Assembly (NCBI GenBank): GCA_030059665.1
Contig: JANVYR010000001.1
Location: forward strand, 32,001 to 96,000
Direction: 5' to 3'
Origin: Candidatus Calditenuis fumarioli
Lineage (GTDB): Archaea; Thermoproteota; Nitrososphaeria_A; Caldarchaeales; Calditenuaceae
DNA: 64,000 nt
Both the position numbers and the translations under genes were made by a program. Below the pieces are notes generated by a model that did not search any database, was not told the DNA's origin, and worked only from the letters and a program-made list of their open reading frames with translations. Within the stretch, counting starts at the first letter, position 1. Every line of letters begins with the position of its first letter. Shown piece after piece: positions 55,951-59,600 of this stretch.

Positions 55951-57414
55951 TCAAGGAGCCCTCCTTTTCGGTGACAGCAGCTGCAAGATGAACGCTCCCT
56001 GCCCCGCAGCCAGCAACGCGCCGAAGGTCAGCAGAGCAGCAACGCCCTCGGAGCCGACGGGCAACGGATAAGCCCTGCGGGGCGCGCCGAGGGAACCCAT
56101 GAAGGCCATCGTGTAGAGGAGCCCGAGGGCCGCGACGGCCGTGAGCACTATGTGGGCGTATGCCAGCTTCGGGTTCTCCGGCCTCCCGAAGAGCAGCCTG
56201 TAGCTGTGGTAGAGCGCACCGATCCAGATCAGGGTCACGGCGATCAGGATCGTCATCAGGTGGGCCGTGGCCGCGTAGGTCCCGTGAAGCCTGAAGGCCC
56301 ATCCGATCGTGCCGAGCTGCATCGCGAGAAAACCGTCAGCTATGTAGACGCCGAAGCCGAGCATGGCCGCGAGGACCGCAGGCGTCAGCCGCAGGCCGAA
56401 AACGTAGGACGTTGCGAGGACGTTGAAGACGGAGAAGGCCGCACCGAACCCCGTCAGCCAGCTGGCGACCTGTCCCGTGTAGCTAAGCCCCTGGGGCTGG
56501 GAGGTGGGCATCGTGAACAGATGGTGGGGGAAGGCCATGATCGCTGCTGTGGAGTAGAAGACGATCGCGAAGAGCCCGAGCTTCTCGCTGAAGAGCGTCC
56601 TCGCCCTCTGCTCCTCCGAGGCCGTGTAGCGCGGGATCAGCCAGTAAACGGTTCCGAGCGCCATTATCCCCATGGCCTCCATCAGGTTGTGGGCGAATAT
56701 CCAGAACGGGTAGTTGAAGTTCATGGGTGTAAGAGCCCAACCGATGGAACCCAACGGGACGATGCCGACGAGCGCCAGGCCGATCGCGACCGCACCAACT
56801 GTGATCGCCGCACCGAGGGGAGGCAAGATGAAGACGTAAGGGAGCATCCCGGCCATCCCGGAGGGGTTGAGCGTTCCCATGAACCTCTCGAGGACGAGGG
56901 CCTCCTGCGTCTTGCCTCCGAAGACGAGCCGCGCCAGCGCAGCCGGGTAGAGGGCCACCACCACCGCGAGCACGAGAACCACTCCCCAGACGAAGACGGT
57001 CAACCCCTCCATCGACCAGAGGCCTTTGAAGACGCCGACCGCCGGCAGCGGGAACATCAGGGTGTAGCTGGTCCTGACGCCGAGGCCGAGGACAGACGCC
57101 GCTATCATCAGCATCCCCAGGTTCAGCAGGACGTATGATGCCTTGACCAGGAGACCCTTCACCGGTTTGCCGTAGCAGAATCCAGCCCTCAGCAGCGAGA
57201 GGCCCATCATCAGCTGGAAGAGGCCGCCGAAGGTCATGACGGTCCCGTGGAAGGTGAGAAGCGTGTTGTATTCCGGTATCCTCAGCAGACCGGTGGCGTG
57301 GGCCAGGACCATCAGCAGCCCAGCGGTGCCGCCGGCGAGGAACCAAGCCAGCGAGGTCAGCACCATCAGCCTCGGATACCTCGTCAGGTCCTCCAGTTTC
57401 ACGCCGGCCTCCAC
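55951..57414 (-). CDS. Heme-copper oxidase superfamily subunit I, B-family-related, NO-reductase-like active site
   Basis: 12-TM; FHG (helix II), FWIFAHNLME (helix VI), FPHH (helix VII), LHGTY..AHLM (helix X), PRR. Confidence 0.88.
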   Translation of the reverse strand: MEAGVKLEDLTRYPRLMVLTSLAWFLAGGTAGLLMVLAHATGLLRIPEYNTLLTFHGTVMTFGGLFQLMMGLSLLRAGFCYGKPVKGLLVKASYVLLNLGMLMIAASVLGLGVRTSYTLMFPLPAVGVFKGLWSMEGLTVFVWGVVLVLAVVVALYPAALARLVFGGKTQEALVLERFMGTLNPSGMAGMLPYVFILPPLGAAITVGAVAIGLALVGIVPLGSIGWALTPMNFNYPFWIFAHNLMEAMGIMALGTVYWLIPRYTASEEQRARTLFSEKLGLFAIVFYSTAAIMAFPHHLFTMPTSQPQGLSYTGQVASWLTGFGAAFSVFNVLATSYVFGLRLTPAVLAAMLGFGVYIADGFLAMQLGTIGWAFRLHGTYAATAHLMTILIAVTLIWIGALYHSYRLLFGRPENPKLAYAHIVLTAVAALGLLYTMAFMGSLGAPRRAYPLPVGSEGVAALLTFGALLAAGQGAFILQLLSPKRRAP

Positions 57415-57415
57415 G

Positions 57416-57967
57416 TCACACCACCCTGAACTTCGATGCCATCGCGGAGTGGCCGTCGCCGCAGTACTCGAGGCACCTCACCGTGTACTCTCCTGGTTCC
57501 CTCAGCTCGAGGACGATCTCCTCGGTCATACCAGGCATCAGCATGACCGTTGCGAGCAGCTCTCCCTTCGGCGAGTAGACGGCAAACGCGTGGATCGCAT
57601 CGAGGCTCCTGGCGACGAACTTGACGACCCCGGTTCTGAGCTCGTACGCGTCCAGCCTGTAGCCCCACATGAAGGCCTCCACCTGGACGACCTGCGTGGG
57701 CTCCTGTTGCGTCGAAACCGCTGTCTGGGCCTGGATCCAAGGTATCCACTGGATGCTGACCAGGTTGATCGCGGTCCACGTCAAGCCGATCGCTATCAAC
57801 CATACCACCTCCGCGGCCCTGATGAGGCGCTCGTTCTCCCGCAGTCCCTCCGCTGAAGCTCGCTTCCCCCTCCTCACCGAGAGCAGGAACAGCGCGACGA
57901 ATACCACTAGGAAAGGTGCCGTGAGGTAGACGAAGATCAGGACCGCGCCGGCACCTGTGCCCATCAT
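57416..57967 (-). CDS. Heme-copper oxidase subunit II (CuA)
   Basis: Two TM helices; A.MWGY, SLDAIHAF, CLEYCGDGHSAM. Confidence 0.9.
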   Translation of the reverse strand: MMGTGAGAVLIFVYLTAPFLVVFVALFLLSVRRGKRASAEGLRENERLIRAAEVVWLIAIGLTWTAINLVSIQWIPWIQAQTAVSTQQEPTQVVQVEAFMWGYRLDAYELRTGVVKFVARSLDAIHAFAVYSPKGELLATVMLMPGMTEEIVLELREPGEYTVRCLEYCGDGHSAMASKFRVV

Positions 57968-57997: not shown

Positions 57998-58212
57998 CCG
58001 TTATACTGGAATTAGGCTGCAATAAGACCACCAAAAAGGGAACCGCAGCGACGGGCTGTTCGCCTAGGGACCACCACAGAGCGGGCCGGTTAGCTCCACG
58101 AGGAGAGGACGGTCCATCGAGACGGCGCGAGCGGAAAGGTCAGGGACGCGTCTGCTGGGTGGCATCGGTGGGAAGACGCGCGTTAAACGCTTAAATCAAA
58201 TGCGCTGGGGAT

Positions 58213-58788
58213 GTGGGTGTGAGCCTGAACCTGAAGGTGACGACGATAATGAACCGCGACATAGCAGCGGTCGATGCGGACAGCACCGTCGAGGAGGCTG
58301 CGAGGGTGATGGCGTCCCGGAACATCGGTGCTATCGCGGTGAAAAGGGGAGGAGAGATCGTGGGGATCATGACCGAGCGGGACGTTCTGAAGCGCGTGGT
58401 GGCGGCCGGTAGGGATCCGAGGACGACGCGGGTGGAGGAGGTGATGAGCAGCCCTCCGATATCGGTGGACTCGAACGCCACGGTGGGAGAGGCCGTCGAC
58501 CTGATGAACAGGAGGGGAATAAGGAGGGTCTTCGTCAGGGAGGGCGGAAGGATCGTTGGGATCTTCACCCAGCGCGACGTGCTCGCCCTGATGAGGGTCT
58601 GCCTCTACTGCCTCGGGGAGATAATCCGTACGCCCGGCGCTCCGAGCTCAGGCCTCATCGGCTGCAGGTGCGGTGCCCTCTACCACGCAGACTGCGCCAG
58701 AACGGTGGTTTACTGCATCGACTGCGGATCGAAACTGGTCGAGCTCGTCGAGTACACGTCACCTGAAGACACGATGGCTGCCGACTGA
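58213..58788 (+). CDS. CBS-pair protein fused to a C4HC3 (RING/PHD-like) zinc finger
   Basis: Two CBS repeats (GIMTERD, GIFTQRD), then C130-x2-C-x17-C-x-C-x4-H-x2-C-x6-C-x2-C171. Confidence 0.85.
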   Translation: MGVSLNLKVTTIMNRDIAAVDADSTVEEAARVMASRNIGAIAVKRGGEIVGIMTERDVLKRVVAAGRDPRTTRVEEVMSSPPISVDSNATVGEAVDLMNRRGIRRVFVREGGRIVGIFTQRDVLALMRVCLYCLGEIIRTPGAPSSGLIGCRCGALYHADCARTVVYCIDCGSKLVELVEYTSPEDTMAAD

Positions 58789-58799
58789 GGGGGCGATCG

Positions 58800-59600
58800 A
58801 TGGACTTCGAGATCCCCTTCTTTTTCTATCACCAGGGGAGGAGGTTAGCGACCGTCTCGATTGAGCTGATGAGGCCGGTCCGGAACCTCGGAAGGGTGCT
58901 CGACGCGCTTGAAAGTTCAGGCATCTCGGTGCTCGGGCTCACCAGCTGGTTGCCGTCCGGTGACTCGGAGTGCGTGGGCTTCCTGATGGTGGTGGACACG
59001 ACAGGACACGGAAGCGATCCGGGTGAGCTGGTCAGGAAACTCTCCGAGCTCCCTGGGGTCACTAACGTCAGGATCTGGCGCTCCGGGATCGACGGTTTCG
59101 CGGCGATGACGCCGAACGGCTTCCCGACCTTCATCGGCGAACGGGTGTACGTCATGCCATCGGTCGTCTTCAAATCCATCTACCACGCTCTGTACAGGAG
59201 CCACGGAAAGACCCTCTTCGTCATCCTTTACCTCGCAGGAAAGGCAACGGGCGAGAGGGCAGCCGAGCTCAGATCCCTCTTCATGGATCAGGAGGCGGAG
59301 CCACTCGAGTCGCTGGTCGCGATCCTCAAGGTGCTCGGCCCTCCGCTGGGAGTCCTAAGGGACGTCGAACGTTTGGAAACGAATGGAGACGTCACGAGGC
59401 TGATGGTCGAGGATCTGGCGGACTGCGTGGCTCTGAGGGAGCTGAGCCCAAGAGCTCCGACAGGTCACTTCCTCCGCGGGTTCATCGAGGGCTTCATGCG
59501 GTCGCTCGGCGAACCGGTCGAGGTCTTCGAGACGGAGTGCATCAACCTCGGACACCCGAGCTGCGAGTTCGAGCTGAAGCGCACCGGTGTCCACAGCTGA
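58800..59600 (+). CDS. ACT-like + V4R domain ligand-sensing protein
   Basis: N-terminal ACT-like (RNLGRVLDAL..GISV); V4R C-terminus DC..GHFLRGFIEG..ETEC..GHPSCEF. Confidence 0.75.
   Translation: MDFEIPFFFYHQGRRLATVSIELMRPVRNLGRVLDALESSGISVLGLTSWLPSGDSECVGFLMVVDTTGHGSDPGELVRKLSELPGVTNVRIWRSGIDGFAAMTPNGFPTFIGERVYVMPSVVFKSIYHALYRSHGKTLFVILYLAGKATGERAAELRSLFMDQEAEPLESLVAILKVLGPPLGVLRDVERLETNGDVTRLMVEDLADCVALRELSPRAPTGHFLRGFIEGFMRSLGEPVEVFETECINLGHPSCEFELKRTGVHS

What the first reader, a model, noticed from the sequence alone, without database searches (positions are those of the whole stretch)
58213..58788. CBS-pair fused to a C4HC3 RING/PHD-like finger: candidate adenylate-regulated E3-like adaptor
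C-x2-C-x17-C-x-C-x4-H-x2-C-x6-C-x2-C (58600-58725) follows two CBS domains. The H-x2-C-x6-C spacing resembles prokaryotic RING family 1. CBS pairs bind AMP/ADP/ATP/SAM. Aigarchaeota are known to have a eukaryote-like ubiquitin-E1-E2-RING system, so this could couple energy status to substrate ubiquitylation and proteasomal degradation. I know of no described CBS-RING protein.
Basis: inference. Interest (0 to 1): 0.75.

Follow-up and report, generated by a model that had tools for sequence, protein, structure and literature searches.

The report
CBS sensor fused to RING-like finger
This hot-spring archaeal gene encodes a small protein that joins a nucleotide-sensing CBS pair to a RING-type double zinc finger; the fusion is real and conserved, but relatives also occur in archaea with no ubiquitin machinery, so it is more likely a general energy-sensing adaptor than a ubiquitin ligase.

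Summary
ORF 58213..58788 (+) encodes two CBS domains followed by C-x2-C-x17-C-x-C-x4-H-x2-C-x6-C-x2-C at 58600-58725. A conserved acidic tail, Y-P-x-P-x-[DE]-T, follows.

The finger has no Pfam hit of its own, but three lines place it as a divergent Prok-RING_1 (PF14446) cross-brace domain:
- Profile-profile match to bona fide Prok-RING_1 modules: 98.5 %, E 4e-15.
- 49 of 56 relatives give sub-threshold PF14446 hits.
- The finger-only AlphaFold model matches only RING domains in Foldseek's top 50.

The family (about 189 aa, at least 236 proteins at E <= 0.01) is single-copy in every carrier genome searched. It occurs in part of the window's own order (26 of 76 genomes) and in soil and peat Nitrososphaeria.

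The E3 reading is only partly supported:
- The window's genome does have Ub, E2 and E1, about 8 kb away. E2 is present in 75 of 76 genomes of the order whether or not the fusion is there.
- Distances to E2 elsewhere are 45-180 kb.
- 9 of 10 carriers outside the order have no E2 match.
- The position of the RING linchpin basic residue is never basic.
- No gene neighbour is conserved.

Best reading: an adenosyl-ligand-gated protein-binding adaptor, analogous to CBS-CP12 and CBS-Zn-ribbon proteins, with an unknown partner.

The parts
58191..58196 (+). TTAAAT, a candidate archaeal TATA box about 25 nt upstream of the GTG at 58219
   Evidence: Read from the sequence. The spacing fits a leaderless transcript. 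Inference only; no RNA data.
58213..58788 (+). CBS-CBS-RING-like finger gene (191 codons from the GTG at 58213; probably 189 aa from the GTG at 58219; stop TGA 58786-58788)
   Evidence: ORF list and translation. Homologues of 189 aa start at the position of 58219.
58237..58401 (+). CBS domain 1 (about residues 9-63), with the motif G-h-h-T-E-R-D at residues 51-57
   Evidence: PF00571, two stretches. G51 and D57 are invariant; T54, E55 and R56 are at least 96 % conserved in 56 relatives.
58432..58593 (+). CBS domain 2 (residues 74-127), with the motif G-h-h-T-x-R-D at residues 116-122 and invariant R104-R105
   Evidence: PF00571 best stretch 74-127. Conservation. The model has pLDDT 93-98 over the Bateman module and matches solved CBS pairs.
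58600..58725 (+). C4HC3 binuclear cross-brace finger, a divergent Prok-RING_1 type (C130, C133, C151, C153, H158, C161, C168, C171)
   Evidence: hhalign against Prok-RING_1 modules: 98.5 %, E 3.9e-15. PF14446 is the commonest sub-threshold hit, 49 of 56 members. Foldseek top 50 are all RING domains. VIA best Z 5.3, a RING.
58747..58785 (+). Conserved acidic, proline-rich C-terminal tail: [VI]-x-Y-P-x-P-x-[DE]-T-x-x-G/A (Y181, P184, T187 invariant)
   Evidence: Alignments A1, A3 and A4. Most members end exactly at a Gly. The window's genus ends in AAD or TAD. Low model confidence, pLDDT 49-67.
58800..59600 (+). Downstream gene, 12 nt after the stop: 266-aa protein with a C-terminal V4R domain; a possible operon partner in this genus only
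   Evidence: PF02830, E 3.2e-10. Found downstream only in the same-genus locus L015 and contig L101, and beside none of the other fetched loci.
55951..57967 (-). Divergently transcribed haem-copper oxidase genes (COX1-like 55951-57414, COX2-like 57416-57967); context only
   Evidence: PF00115 E 4e-36; PF00116 E 4e-4, just under its cut-off. This arrangement is not found beside relatives.

Best explanation
The gene encodes a small cytosolic regulator of a conserved, so far uncharacterised Nitrososphaeria family. It has three parts. (1) A Bateman module (two CBS domains) in which both CBS domains keep the ribose/phosphate-binding motif G-h-h-T-x-x-D, plus an invariant Arg pair. (2) A divergent Prok-RING_1-type C4HC3 cross-brace finger expected to hold two metal ions. 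(3) A conserved acidic tail, Y-P-x-P-x-[DE]-T. Proposed mechanism, all steps inferred. The Bateman modules dimerise and bind an adenosyl ligand (AMP, ADP, ATP or SAM). Ligand occupancy changes how the finger and tail are presented. The finger and tail bind a partner protein whose activity or stability is thereby tied to energy status. This would work like CBS-CP12, plant CBSX, AcuB or the TA0289-type CBS-Zn-ribbon proteins. The RING-like domain acts here as a protein-binding module and does not need a ubiquitin E2. Shown: the domain composition, its conservation, the RING-like fold (predicted) and the phyletic pattern. Inferred: ligand, oligomeric state, partner and output.
For: Two CBS domains. 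The model's Bateman module has pLDDT 93-98 and matches solved CBS pairs at Foldseek E 1e-13 to 1e-9, among them AMP- or ADP-binding regulators such as CBS-CP12 and AcuB. G51, D57, T119, R104 and R105 are invariant; T54, R56, R121 and D122 are at least 96 % conserved. The finger is homologous to Prok-RING_1 modules and its predicted fold is RING-like. Finger plus tail are acidic, net charge mean -1.8 and range -6 to 0, which favours protein binding over nucleic-acid binding. The family is one gene per genome in every carrier searched. It keeps its length of 185-193 aa and its tail across at least 236 proteins at E <= 0.01 (the 120 listed all carry CBS), and occurs in two distant lineages. Gene neighbours differ between lineages, as expected for a stand-alone regulator. 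9 of 10 carriers outside the order lack E2. The four of these also searched for ubiquitin have none. CBS-CP12 is a documented precedent: a CBS pair fused to a small Cys-containing partner-binding domain that inhibits phosphoribulokinase in an AMP-dependent manner (PMC6142219).
Against: No partner, ligand or phenotype is known. No conserved neighbour points to a target. The tail and the first loop of the finger are modelled with low confidence. In 6 of 56 members the His ligand is Met. That is unusual for a purely structural zinc site and may mean the metal centre itself is functional. The explanation is generic and fits any protein made of a CBS pair plus a small domain.
Confidence: 0.5

Rival explanations
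1. One reading: in this order (Aigarchaeota-type archaea) the protein is an adenylate-regulated RING E3 or E3-like adaptor. It would recruit the archaeal E2~Ub through the finger and couple energy status to ubiquitylation.
For: RING-like cross-brace fold and Prok-RING_1 homology. The genome encodes Ub, E2 and an E1-like protein. That Ub-E2-E1 operon has no RING gene next to it: the next gene is a Cys-free 187-aa protein. In two genomes the Ub cluster lies within 6-8 kb of the fusion gene: G000, and G419, which lies outside the window's order. A hydrophobic residue is kept at C6+4/+5 and an Arg or Lys at C8+2 in 44 of 56 members.
Against: E2 is in 75 of 76 genomes of the order and the fusion in only 26 of 76. 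Distance to E2 is 45-180 kb in other genomes of the order. 9 of 10 carriers outside the order have no UQ_con match, two complete chromosomes among them. The four of these also searched for ubiquitin have none. C8+1, the linchpin position, is Ser/Gly/Ala in all 56 members. There is no Pro after C7, and C1+2 is Tyr/His/Gln rather than Ile/Val (the functional residues I30, W58 and R69 of srfp are from PMC5654768). Other RING-like proteins exist in the genome.
Confidence: 0.12
2. Redox or metal sensor. The Cys-rich binuclear site is itself the sensing or reactive element, either a thiol-zinc redox switch or an Fe-binding centre as in the TA0289 CBS-rubredoxin-like protein. The CBS pair would add an energy input. 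The role would be linked to aerobic life.
For: The nearest solved architecture is TA0289, deposited as a 'CBS-rubredoxin-like protein, Fe2+-bound' (PDB 2qh1 and 1pvm). The His ligand is replaced by Met, a ligand more typical of Fe or Cu sites, in 6 of 56 members. All 26 carriers in the order have a haem-copper oxidase, and none of the 30 oxidase-less genomes has the fusion. 8 of 10 carriers outside the order have one too. In the window the gene is divergent from cox genes. Nitrososphaerota also have a CBS plus rubredoxin-like (PF21349) family.
Against: 20 oxidase-positive genomes of the order lack the fusion, and related genomes are not independent observations. The cox neighbourhood is not found in relatives. 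The sequence match to TA0289 covers only the CBS part, query residues 6-125. The finger is homologous to RING-type structural zinc sites, not to rubredoxin.
Confidence: 0.15
3. Ribosome hibernation factor. It would resemble the archaeal CBS-based factors (Dri, Sri, ARC, AHA/HibA): a dimer forms a four-CBS disc that sits on the ribosome at low energy charge, and the finger and tail act as the occluding element.
For: The best PDB sequence hit is an M. acetivorans 70S-bound CBS protein of the Sri family (9zni_6, E 1.7e-19). CBS proteins have repeatedly been found as energy-sensing hibernation factors in archaea (PMC13454478; bioRxiv 10.64898/2026.01.19.700304). In one soil lineage the gene sits directly upstream of an HflX-type GTPase.
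Against: The known factors have four tandem CBS domains per chain and basic occlusion elements or an HPF domain. This protein has two CBS domains and an acidic finger and tail. The similarity to Sri is generic CBS similarity. The HflX neighbour is limited to a few close relatives.
Confidence: 0.08

Closest known systems
Prokaryotic RING finger family 1 (Pfam PF14446, Prok-RING_1; Burroughs, Iyer and Aravind 2011, a paper not held in the library)
   Same: Identical ligand order and spacing in the second half: C-x-C-G-x2-[YF]-H-x2-C-x6-C-x2-C. Profile-profile probability 98.5 %, E 3.9e-15. 49 of 56 members give sub-threshold PF14446 hits. The predicted fold is RING-like.
   Different: The query scores below the family's gathering cut-off; no hit is listed even at E <= 10. 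The first loop is longer (17-21 residues against about 12). A conserved acidic tail is appended. It is fused to a CBS pair, an architecture I found in no paper searched.
Caldiarchaeum subterraneum small RING finger protein (srfp), the experimentally shown archaeal RING E3 (PMC5654768)
   Same: Small archaeal cross-brace zinc finger in an organism with a Ub/E1/E2 system.
   Different: srfp is RING-H2, is encoded in the Ub operon, and needs I30, W58 and the linchpin R69. Here the gene is unlinked to the operon. The linchpin position is Ser/Gly/Ala in all members, there is no Pro after C7, and the family also occurs in genomes without an E2 match.
TA0289-type CBS-Zn-ribbon / CBS-rubredoxin-like proteins (PDB 1pvm, 2qh1, 3ghd; Proudfoot et al. 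2008, not held)
   Same: Same design: an archaeal CBS pair of about 125 aa followed by a small C-terminal Cys-ligated metal domain, about 180-190 aa in all.
   Different: TA0289's C-terminal domain is described as a rubredoxin-like or Zn-ribbon-like domain. From my own knowledge it is mononuclear with four Cys. Here there are eight ligands in a RING-type cross-brace. The sequence match is confined to the CBS part.
CBS-CP12 fusion proteins of cyanobacteria (PMC6142219)
   Same: A CBS pair fused C-terminally to a small Cys-containing partner-binding module. Output depends on AMP (phosphoribulokinase inhibition). Gene neighbourhoods vary. Foldseek match of the CBS part at E 1e-11.
   Different: The effector domain is unrelated (CP12 against a RING-like finger), as are the taxa. 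The target is known there and unknown here.
PHD fingers (C4HC3)
   Same: Same ligand order, C4HC3. The best PDB profile hits are PHD fingers (1wev E 9e-4; KAT6A E 0.06).
   Different: Only 6 residues lie between C6 and C7. PHD fingers have about 12-46 there (my knowledge). The structural matches are mostly to RING domains.

Membership tests
CBS pair / Bateman module (PF00571) | Two tandem CBS domains scoring above the Pfam cut-off | tested here: met
   97.7 bits against a cut-off of 24, two stretches. The model matches solved CBS pairs, TM by target 0.8-0.88.
CBS pair / Bateman module (PF00571) | Ribose/phosphate-binding motif G-h-h-[ST]-x-x-[DN] in the CBS domains (the motif definition is from my knowledge of the CBS literature) | tested here: met
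   GIMTERD (residues 51-57) and GIFTQRD (116-122). G, T and D are 96-100 % conserved in 56 relatives. Ligand binding itself was not tested.
Prok-RING_1 (PF14446) | Score above Pfam's gathering cut-off (29.1 bits) | tested here: not met
   No PF14446 hit for the query even at E <= 10, and none at this locus in the genome-wide scan. Relatives reach at best E 1.3e-5, sub-threshold.
Prok-RING_1 (PF14446) | Homology to bona fide members, with the same ligand order and spacing | tested here: met
   hhalign of A4 against modules taken from the phmmer hits P0009, P0017, P0018, P0021 and P0024: 98.5 %, E 3.9e-15, 42 columns. P0017, P0021 and P0024 score above the PF14446 cut-off. P0009 (28.6 bits) and P0018 (24.1 bits) fall just below it.
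RING-type E3 ubiquitin ligase | Binuclear cross-brace fold with eight conserved metal ligands | tested here: met
   Prediction only. The finger model has pLDDT 78.7. Foldseek top 50 are all RING domains: best E 0.037, probability 0.99, TM 0.56. VIA best Z 5.3, a RING. Seven Cys are invariant; His in 50 of 56.
RING-type E3 ubiquitin ligase | Linchpin Arg/Lys directly after the last Cys, and Pro after C7 (R69 of srfp, PMC5654768; the general rule is from knowledge of RING E3s) | tested here: not met
   C8+1 is Ser 44, Gly 10, Ala 2 of 56. C7+1 is Val/Ile/Leu. Arg or Lys is found only at C8+2, in 44 of 56.
RING-type E3 ubiquitin ligase | Co-occurrence or gene linkage with E2 and ubiquitin | tested here: not met
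   E2 in 75 of 76 genomes of the order against the fusion in 26 of 76. Distances are 45-180 kb. No E2 match in 9 of 10 carriers outside the order. No ubiquitin match in the four of these also searched for it.
RING-type E3 ubiquitin ligase | Binding to E2 and stimulation of ubiquitin transfer | not testable with these tools
   Needs biochemistry: a reconstituted cascade as in PMC5654768.
TA0289-type CBS-Zn-ribbon family | C-terminal domain homologous to the TA0289 rubredoxin-like Zn ribbon | tested here: inconclusive
   phmmer aligns only query residues 6-125 to 1pvm and 2qh1. Foldseek aligns 172 columns but at rmsd 15 A. The finger is instead homologous to Prok-RING_1.
Archaeal CBS ribosome hibernation factors (Sri, ARC, Dri, AHA/HibA) | Four tandem CBS domains per chain plus a basic occlusion element or an HPF domain | tested here: not met
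   Two CBS domains only. The C-terminal part has net charge -6 to 0.

The most novel reading that the evidence does not exclude
In this order the protein is a true energy-gated RING E3 (or E2-recruiting adaptor) for the archaeal ubiquitin system. In the soil lineages without E2, the same RING-like module works without ubiquitin. The family would then be a living intermediate showing how a prokaryotic protein-binding RING was recruited as an E3, and the first E3 in any domain of life regulated directly by a fused adenylate sensor.
Probability: 0.1. Interest if true: 0.8.

Novelty: new variant of a known kind. Interest (0 to 1): 0.45.

Why it matters
CBS pairs fused to small effector domains are a known way of tying protein activity to adenylate levels. 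RING-like fingers in prokaryotes are known but almost unstudied.

A conserved, single-copy CBS plus Prok-RING_1 fusion gives a defined and tractable protein for asking what a prokaryotic RING-type domain does when no E2 is present. It occurs both in archaea with a eukaryote-like ubiquitin system and in relatives where no E2 or ubiquitin match was found. That bears on how RING E3 ligases arose.

If the partner can be found, it would also reveal an energy-sensing circuit in Aigarchaeota-type and soil Nitrososphaeria. These groups remain uncultured or poorly studied.

Tried and rejected
- **Complex prediction of the genome's E2 (alignment A5) with the finger (alignment A4):** verdict 'no answer', score 0.00, controls not run. 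This is evidence neither for nor against binding.
- **Expression:** no RNA holder was listed for the locus. The one metatranscriptome laid gave nothing. This says nothing about expression.
- **Pfam and NCBIfam on the finger alone:** only noise (C1_1, PHD_3, S27e and LysW ribbon at E 0.5-0.9).
- **Word-indexed search with the query's finger alone:** found only relatives at 81-90 % identity. The exhaustive phmmer search and the profile searches were needed to reach the family.
- **Conserved-neighbour analysis over 38 loci:** no neighbour is shared beyond close relatives. The V4R gene is a partner only within the genus.
- **Stand-alone finger proteins:** the short hits are truncated gene calls or a chimeric contig end, not a separate family.
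- **Whole-protein Foldseek:** swamped by CBS pairs. The finger had to be folded alone.
- **Literature:** Burroughs et al. 2011 (PMC5938088) and Proudfoot et al. 2008 (PMC2613313) are not held. I could not check whether a CBS-RING architecture is already drawn in the former. Full-text searches for 'prokaryotic RING' with CBS, and for PF14446 or Prok-RING, found no such description.
- **Nucleic-acid-binding regulator:** considered and set aside, because the finger and tail are acidic.
- **Tail ending in Gly as a ubiquitin-like conjugation tail:** considered and set aside. Some members do end in Gly-Gly, but the window's own genus ends in AAD or TAD and there is no beta-grasp domain.

Full report
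**What is there.** The window holds an ORF at 58213..58788 on the + strand. Pfam finds two CBS domains (PF00571, E 4.8e-28). After them come eight metal-ligand residues: C130, C133, C151, C153, H158, C161, C168 and C171. Close homologues of 189 aa start at the second GTG, 58219. A TTAAAT box lies about 25 nt upstream of it, so I infer a leaderless transcript from 58219. A 266-aa V4R-domain gene starts 12 nt after the stop. Haem-copper oxidase genes lie divergently upstream, and an aconitase-family gene lies convergently downstream.

**The pattern is not chance.** An exhaustive phmmer search of 1.84 billion cluster representatives with the finger alone found CBS-plus-finger relatives at 37-49 % identity. 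A profile search found at least 236 proteins at E <= 0.01. The 120 listed are mostly 185-193 aa, and all carry CBS. In an alignment of 56 of them all seven Cys are invariant. The His is kept in 50 and is Met in 6, which form one Caldarchaeum subgroup. A C-terminal tail, [VI]-x-Y-P-x-P-x-[DE]-T-x-x-G, is as well conserved as the finger. Most members end exactly at that Gly. The window's genus ends in AAD or TAD.

**What the finger is.**
- Pfam and NCBIfam give no significant hit for the finger itself.
- The more distant phmmer hits are multi-finger proteins. Three of them (P0017, P0021, P0024) score above the Pfam cut-offs for Prok-RING_1 (PF14446) and zf-RING_2. P0009 falls just under the PF14446 cut-off and above the zf-RING_2 one.
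- These modules have the same second half: C-x-C-G-x2-[YF]-H-x2-C-x6-C-x2-C.
- A profile-profile comparison of the family's finger with 13 such modules gives 98.5 % probability, E 3.9e-15.
- PF14446 is the commonest sub-threshold hit among family members, 49 of 56.
- A language-model look-alike search also points to Prok-RING_1 and zf-RING_2 clusters. Scores of about 0.8 make this a lead only.
- The finger folded alone has pLDDT 78.7. Foldseek's top 50 PDB matches are all RING domains of E3 ligases: best E 0.037, probability 0.99, TM 0.56.
- An independent aligner ranks a RING first (Z 5.3), followed by Slx1 and Nse1 RINGs, PHD fingers and C1 domains at Z 3-4.

The scores are modest, as expected for about 60 residues, but the class is consistent: a binuclear cross-brace treble clef.

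**Is it an E3?** The genome (1.57 Mb, 3 contigs, 91 % complete) does encode ubiquitin, a UQ_con E2 and an E1-like protein. They form an operon at G000:C1:98.5-101 kb, about 8 kb downstream of this gene and just outside the window. The comparative evidence does not tie the family to it:
- In the window's own order, E2 is found in 75 of 76 genomes. The fusion is in 26: one family 18 of 18, and the window's family 7 of 18 besides the window's own genome. It is absent from two other families, 0 of 39.
- Where both lie on one contig, they are 45-180 kb apart.
- Outside the order the family occurs in soil and peat MAGs labelled Nitrososphaerales, Nitrososphaerota and similar, and in 6 of 121 sampled genomes of that other order.
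- Of ten such carriers, nine have no UQ_con match, two of them complete chromosomes. The four of these also searched for ubiquitin have none.
- The tenth, G419, has an Rpn11-Ub-E2-E1 cluster about 6 kb from its copy, in a different orientation and with unrelated genes between.
- At residue level, the position after the last Cys is Ser/Gly/Ala in all 56 members. That is where RING E3s carry the linchpin Arg/Lys, R69 in the experimentally tested C. subterraneum srfp (PMC5654768).
- There is no Pro after C7, and C1+2 is Tyr/His/Gln rather than Ile/Val.
- The genome has at least three other RING-like proteins. One is srfp-like (71 aa from its first Met, in an 82-codon open frame). One is a membrane protein with a C-terminal RING. 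One is a 99-aa protein next to a second, genus-specific Ub-like/E2-like fused gene.

An E3 role in this order is thus possible but unsupported. It cannot be the general function of the family.

**What it most likely does.** Both CBS domains keep the G-h-h-T-x-x-D ribose/phosphate motif, and an invariant Arg pair is present. An adenosyl ligand is therefore likely; this is an inference. Finger and tail are acidic, net charge -6 to 0, which argues for protein binding rather than nucleic-acid binding. Neighbours differ in every lineage examined:
- V4R gene in the window's genus.
- 2-hydroxyacid dehydrogenase downstream in Caldarchaeum.
- XPD-like helicase and HflX-type GTPase in one soil lineage.
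- ABC1 kinase and acyl-CoA dehydrogenase in another.

So this is a stand-alone regulator. The closest functional precedents are CBS-CP12, which inhibits phosphoribulokinase in an AMP-dependent way (PMC6142219), and the TA0289-type CBS-Zn-ribbon proteins. I therefore favour an adenosyl-ligand-gated adaptor whose RING-like finger and tail bind an unknown partner (confidence 0.5).

**Rivals.**
- *Redox or metal sensor (0.15).* Suggested by the His-to-Met variants, the Fe-binding precedent TA0289 and a loose association with aerobes. All 26 carriers in the order have COX1, and none of the 30 COX1-less genomes has the fusion. 8 of 10 carriers outside the order have COX1 too. Against this, 20 COX1-positive genomes lack the fusion, and related genomes are not independent.
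- *E3 reading (0.12).* See above.
- *Ribosome hibernation factor (0.08).* The best PDB sequence hit is a Sri protein, and archaeal CBS proteins are a recurring solution for hibernation. Those factors, however, have four CBS domains per chain and basic occluding elements.

**Novelty.** Databases call the family only 'CBS domain-containing protein'. JGI adds an RPC12/RpoP zinc-ribbon label. I found no paper describing a CBS plus Prok-RING fusion. The key 2011 survey of prokaryotic RINGs is not in the library, so prior mention cannot be excluded. I rate it a new variant of a known kind (a CBS pair plus a small effector domain), of moderate interest. It offers a clean case of a RING-type domain kept in lineages where no E2 or ubiquitin match was found.

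**Habitat.** The stretch is held by hot-spring and sediment metagenome runs from 11 studies. No RNA evidence could be obtained.

Noticed in passing
G000:C1:98523-101070, outside the window, about 8 kb downstream of the gene (loci L004, L006): A ubiquitin (78 aa, ends GG) - E2 (167 aa) - E1-like (394 aa) operon. Unlike the published C. subterraneum operon it has no adjacent RING gene. The next gene encodes a Cys-free 187-aa protein with no Pfam hit. Upstream, on the other strand, lies a 349-aa ORF that was not scanned against any family library.
   Followed up: partly
G000:C2:190880-193950 (loci L003, L005, L007): A second system. A 274-aa ORF carries both a ubiquitin-like (24 bits) and an E2-like (31 bits) match. 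About 2 kb upstream lie a 99-aa Prok-RING_1-like protein (25 bits, the same 'YH-x-DCAR' core as the CBS finger) and a 280-aa protein with no Pfam hit. The second E2-like match is seen only in genomes of the window's own genus.
   Followed up: partly
Relatives P0040, P0044, P0053, P0087, P0090, P0097 (Caldarchaeum sp.), at the position of H158: The His metal ligand is replaced by Met ('YMQEC' or 'YMMEC') in 6 of 56 family members, while all Cys stay. This is unusual for a structural zinc site.
   Followed up: no
window 58800-59600 against 58213-58788: In contigs from two independent metagenome runs the CBS-finger gene is identical to the window, while the adjacent V4R gene carries 22-33 substitutions and small indels. 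Contigs break at about 58840-58990, which suggests a strain-variable segment starts just after the CBS-finger gene.
   Followed up: no
L101:109-423 (protein P0008): A 104-aa gene call at the start of a 4.7-kb metagenome contig joins the N-terminus of the V4R protein to the finger and is followed by the intact V4R gene. Most likely a chimeric contig end, not a real gene.
   Followed up: yes
Protein P0015: A family member from a public assembly contains the peptides 'SYTHLDVYKRQ' and 'LLYTSRCV'. To my knowledge these are translations of sequencing-adaptor sequence, i.e. contamination in that contig.
   Followed up: no
window 55951-57967 (-): The haem-copper oxidase next to the gene is a divergent second copy (COX1 125 bits here). 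The genome's main COX1 scores 440 bits at C1:217510.
   Followed up: no
L064 (G419:C2, about 487.8-495.6 kb): In a MAG labelled Bathyarchaeota, whose copy is the closest relative fetched from outside the window's order, an Rpn11-like JAMM membrane protein and a Ub-E2-E1 cluster lie about 6 kb from the CBS-finger gene. This is the only other genome seen with the two loci this close.
   Followed up: partly
ESM Atlas cluster, row 4: Nitrososphaerota also have a separate family of about 171 aa made of a CBS pair plus a rubredoxin-like domain (PF21349 in 62 % of members). That is a TA0289-like sister architecture to the one studied here.
   Followed up: no
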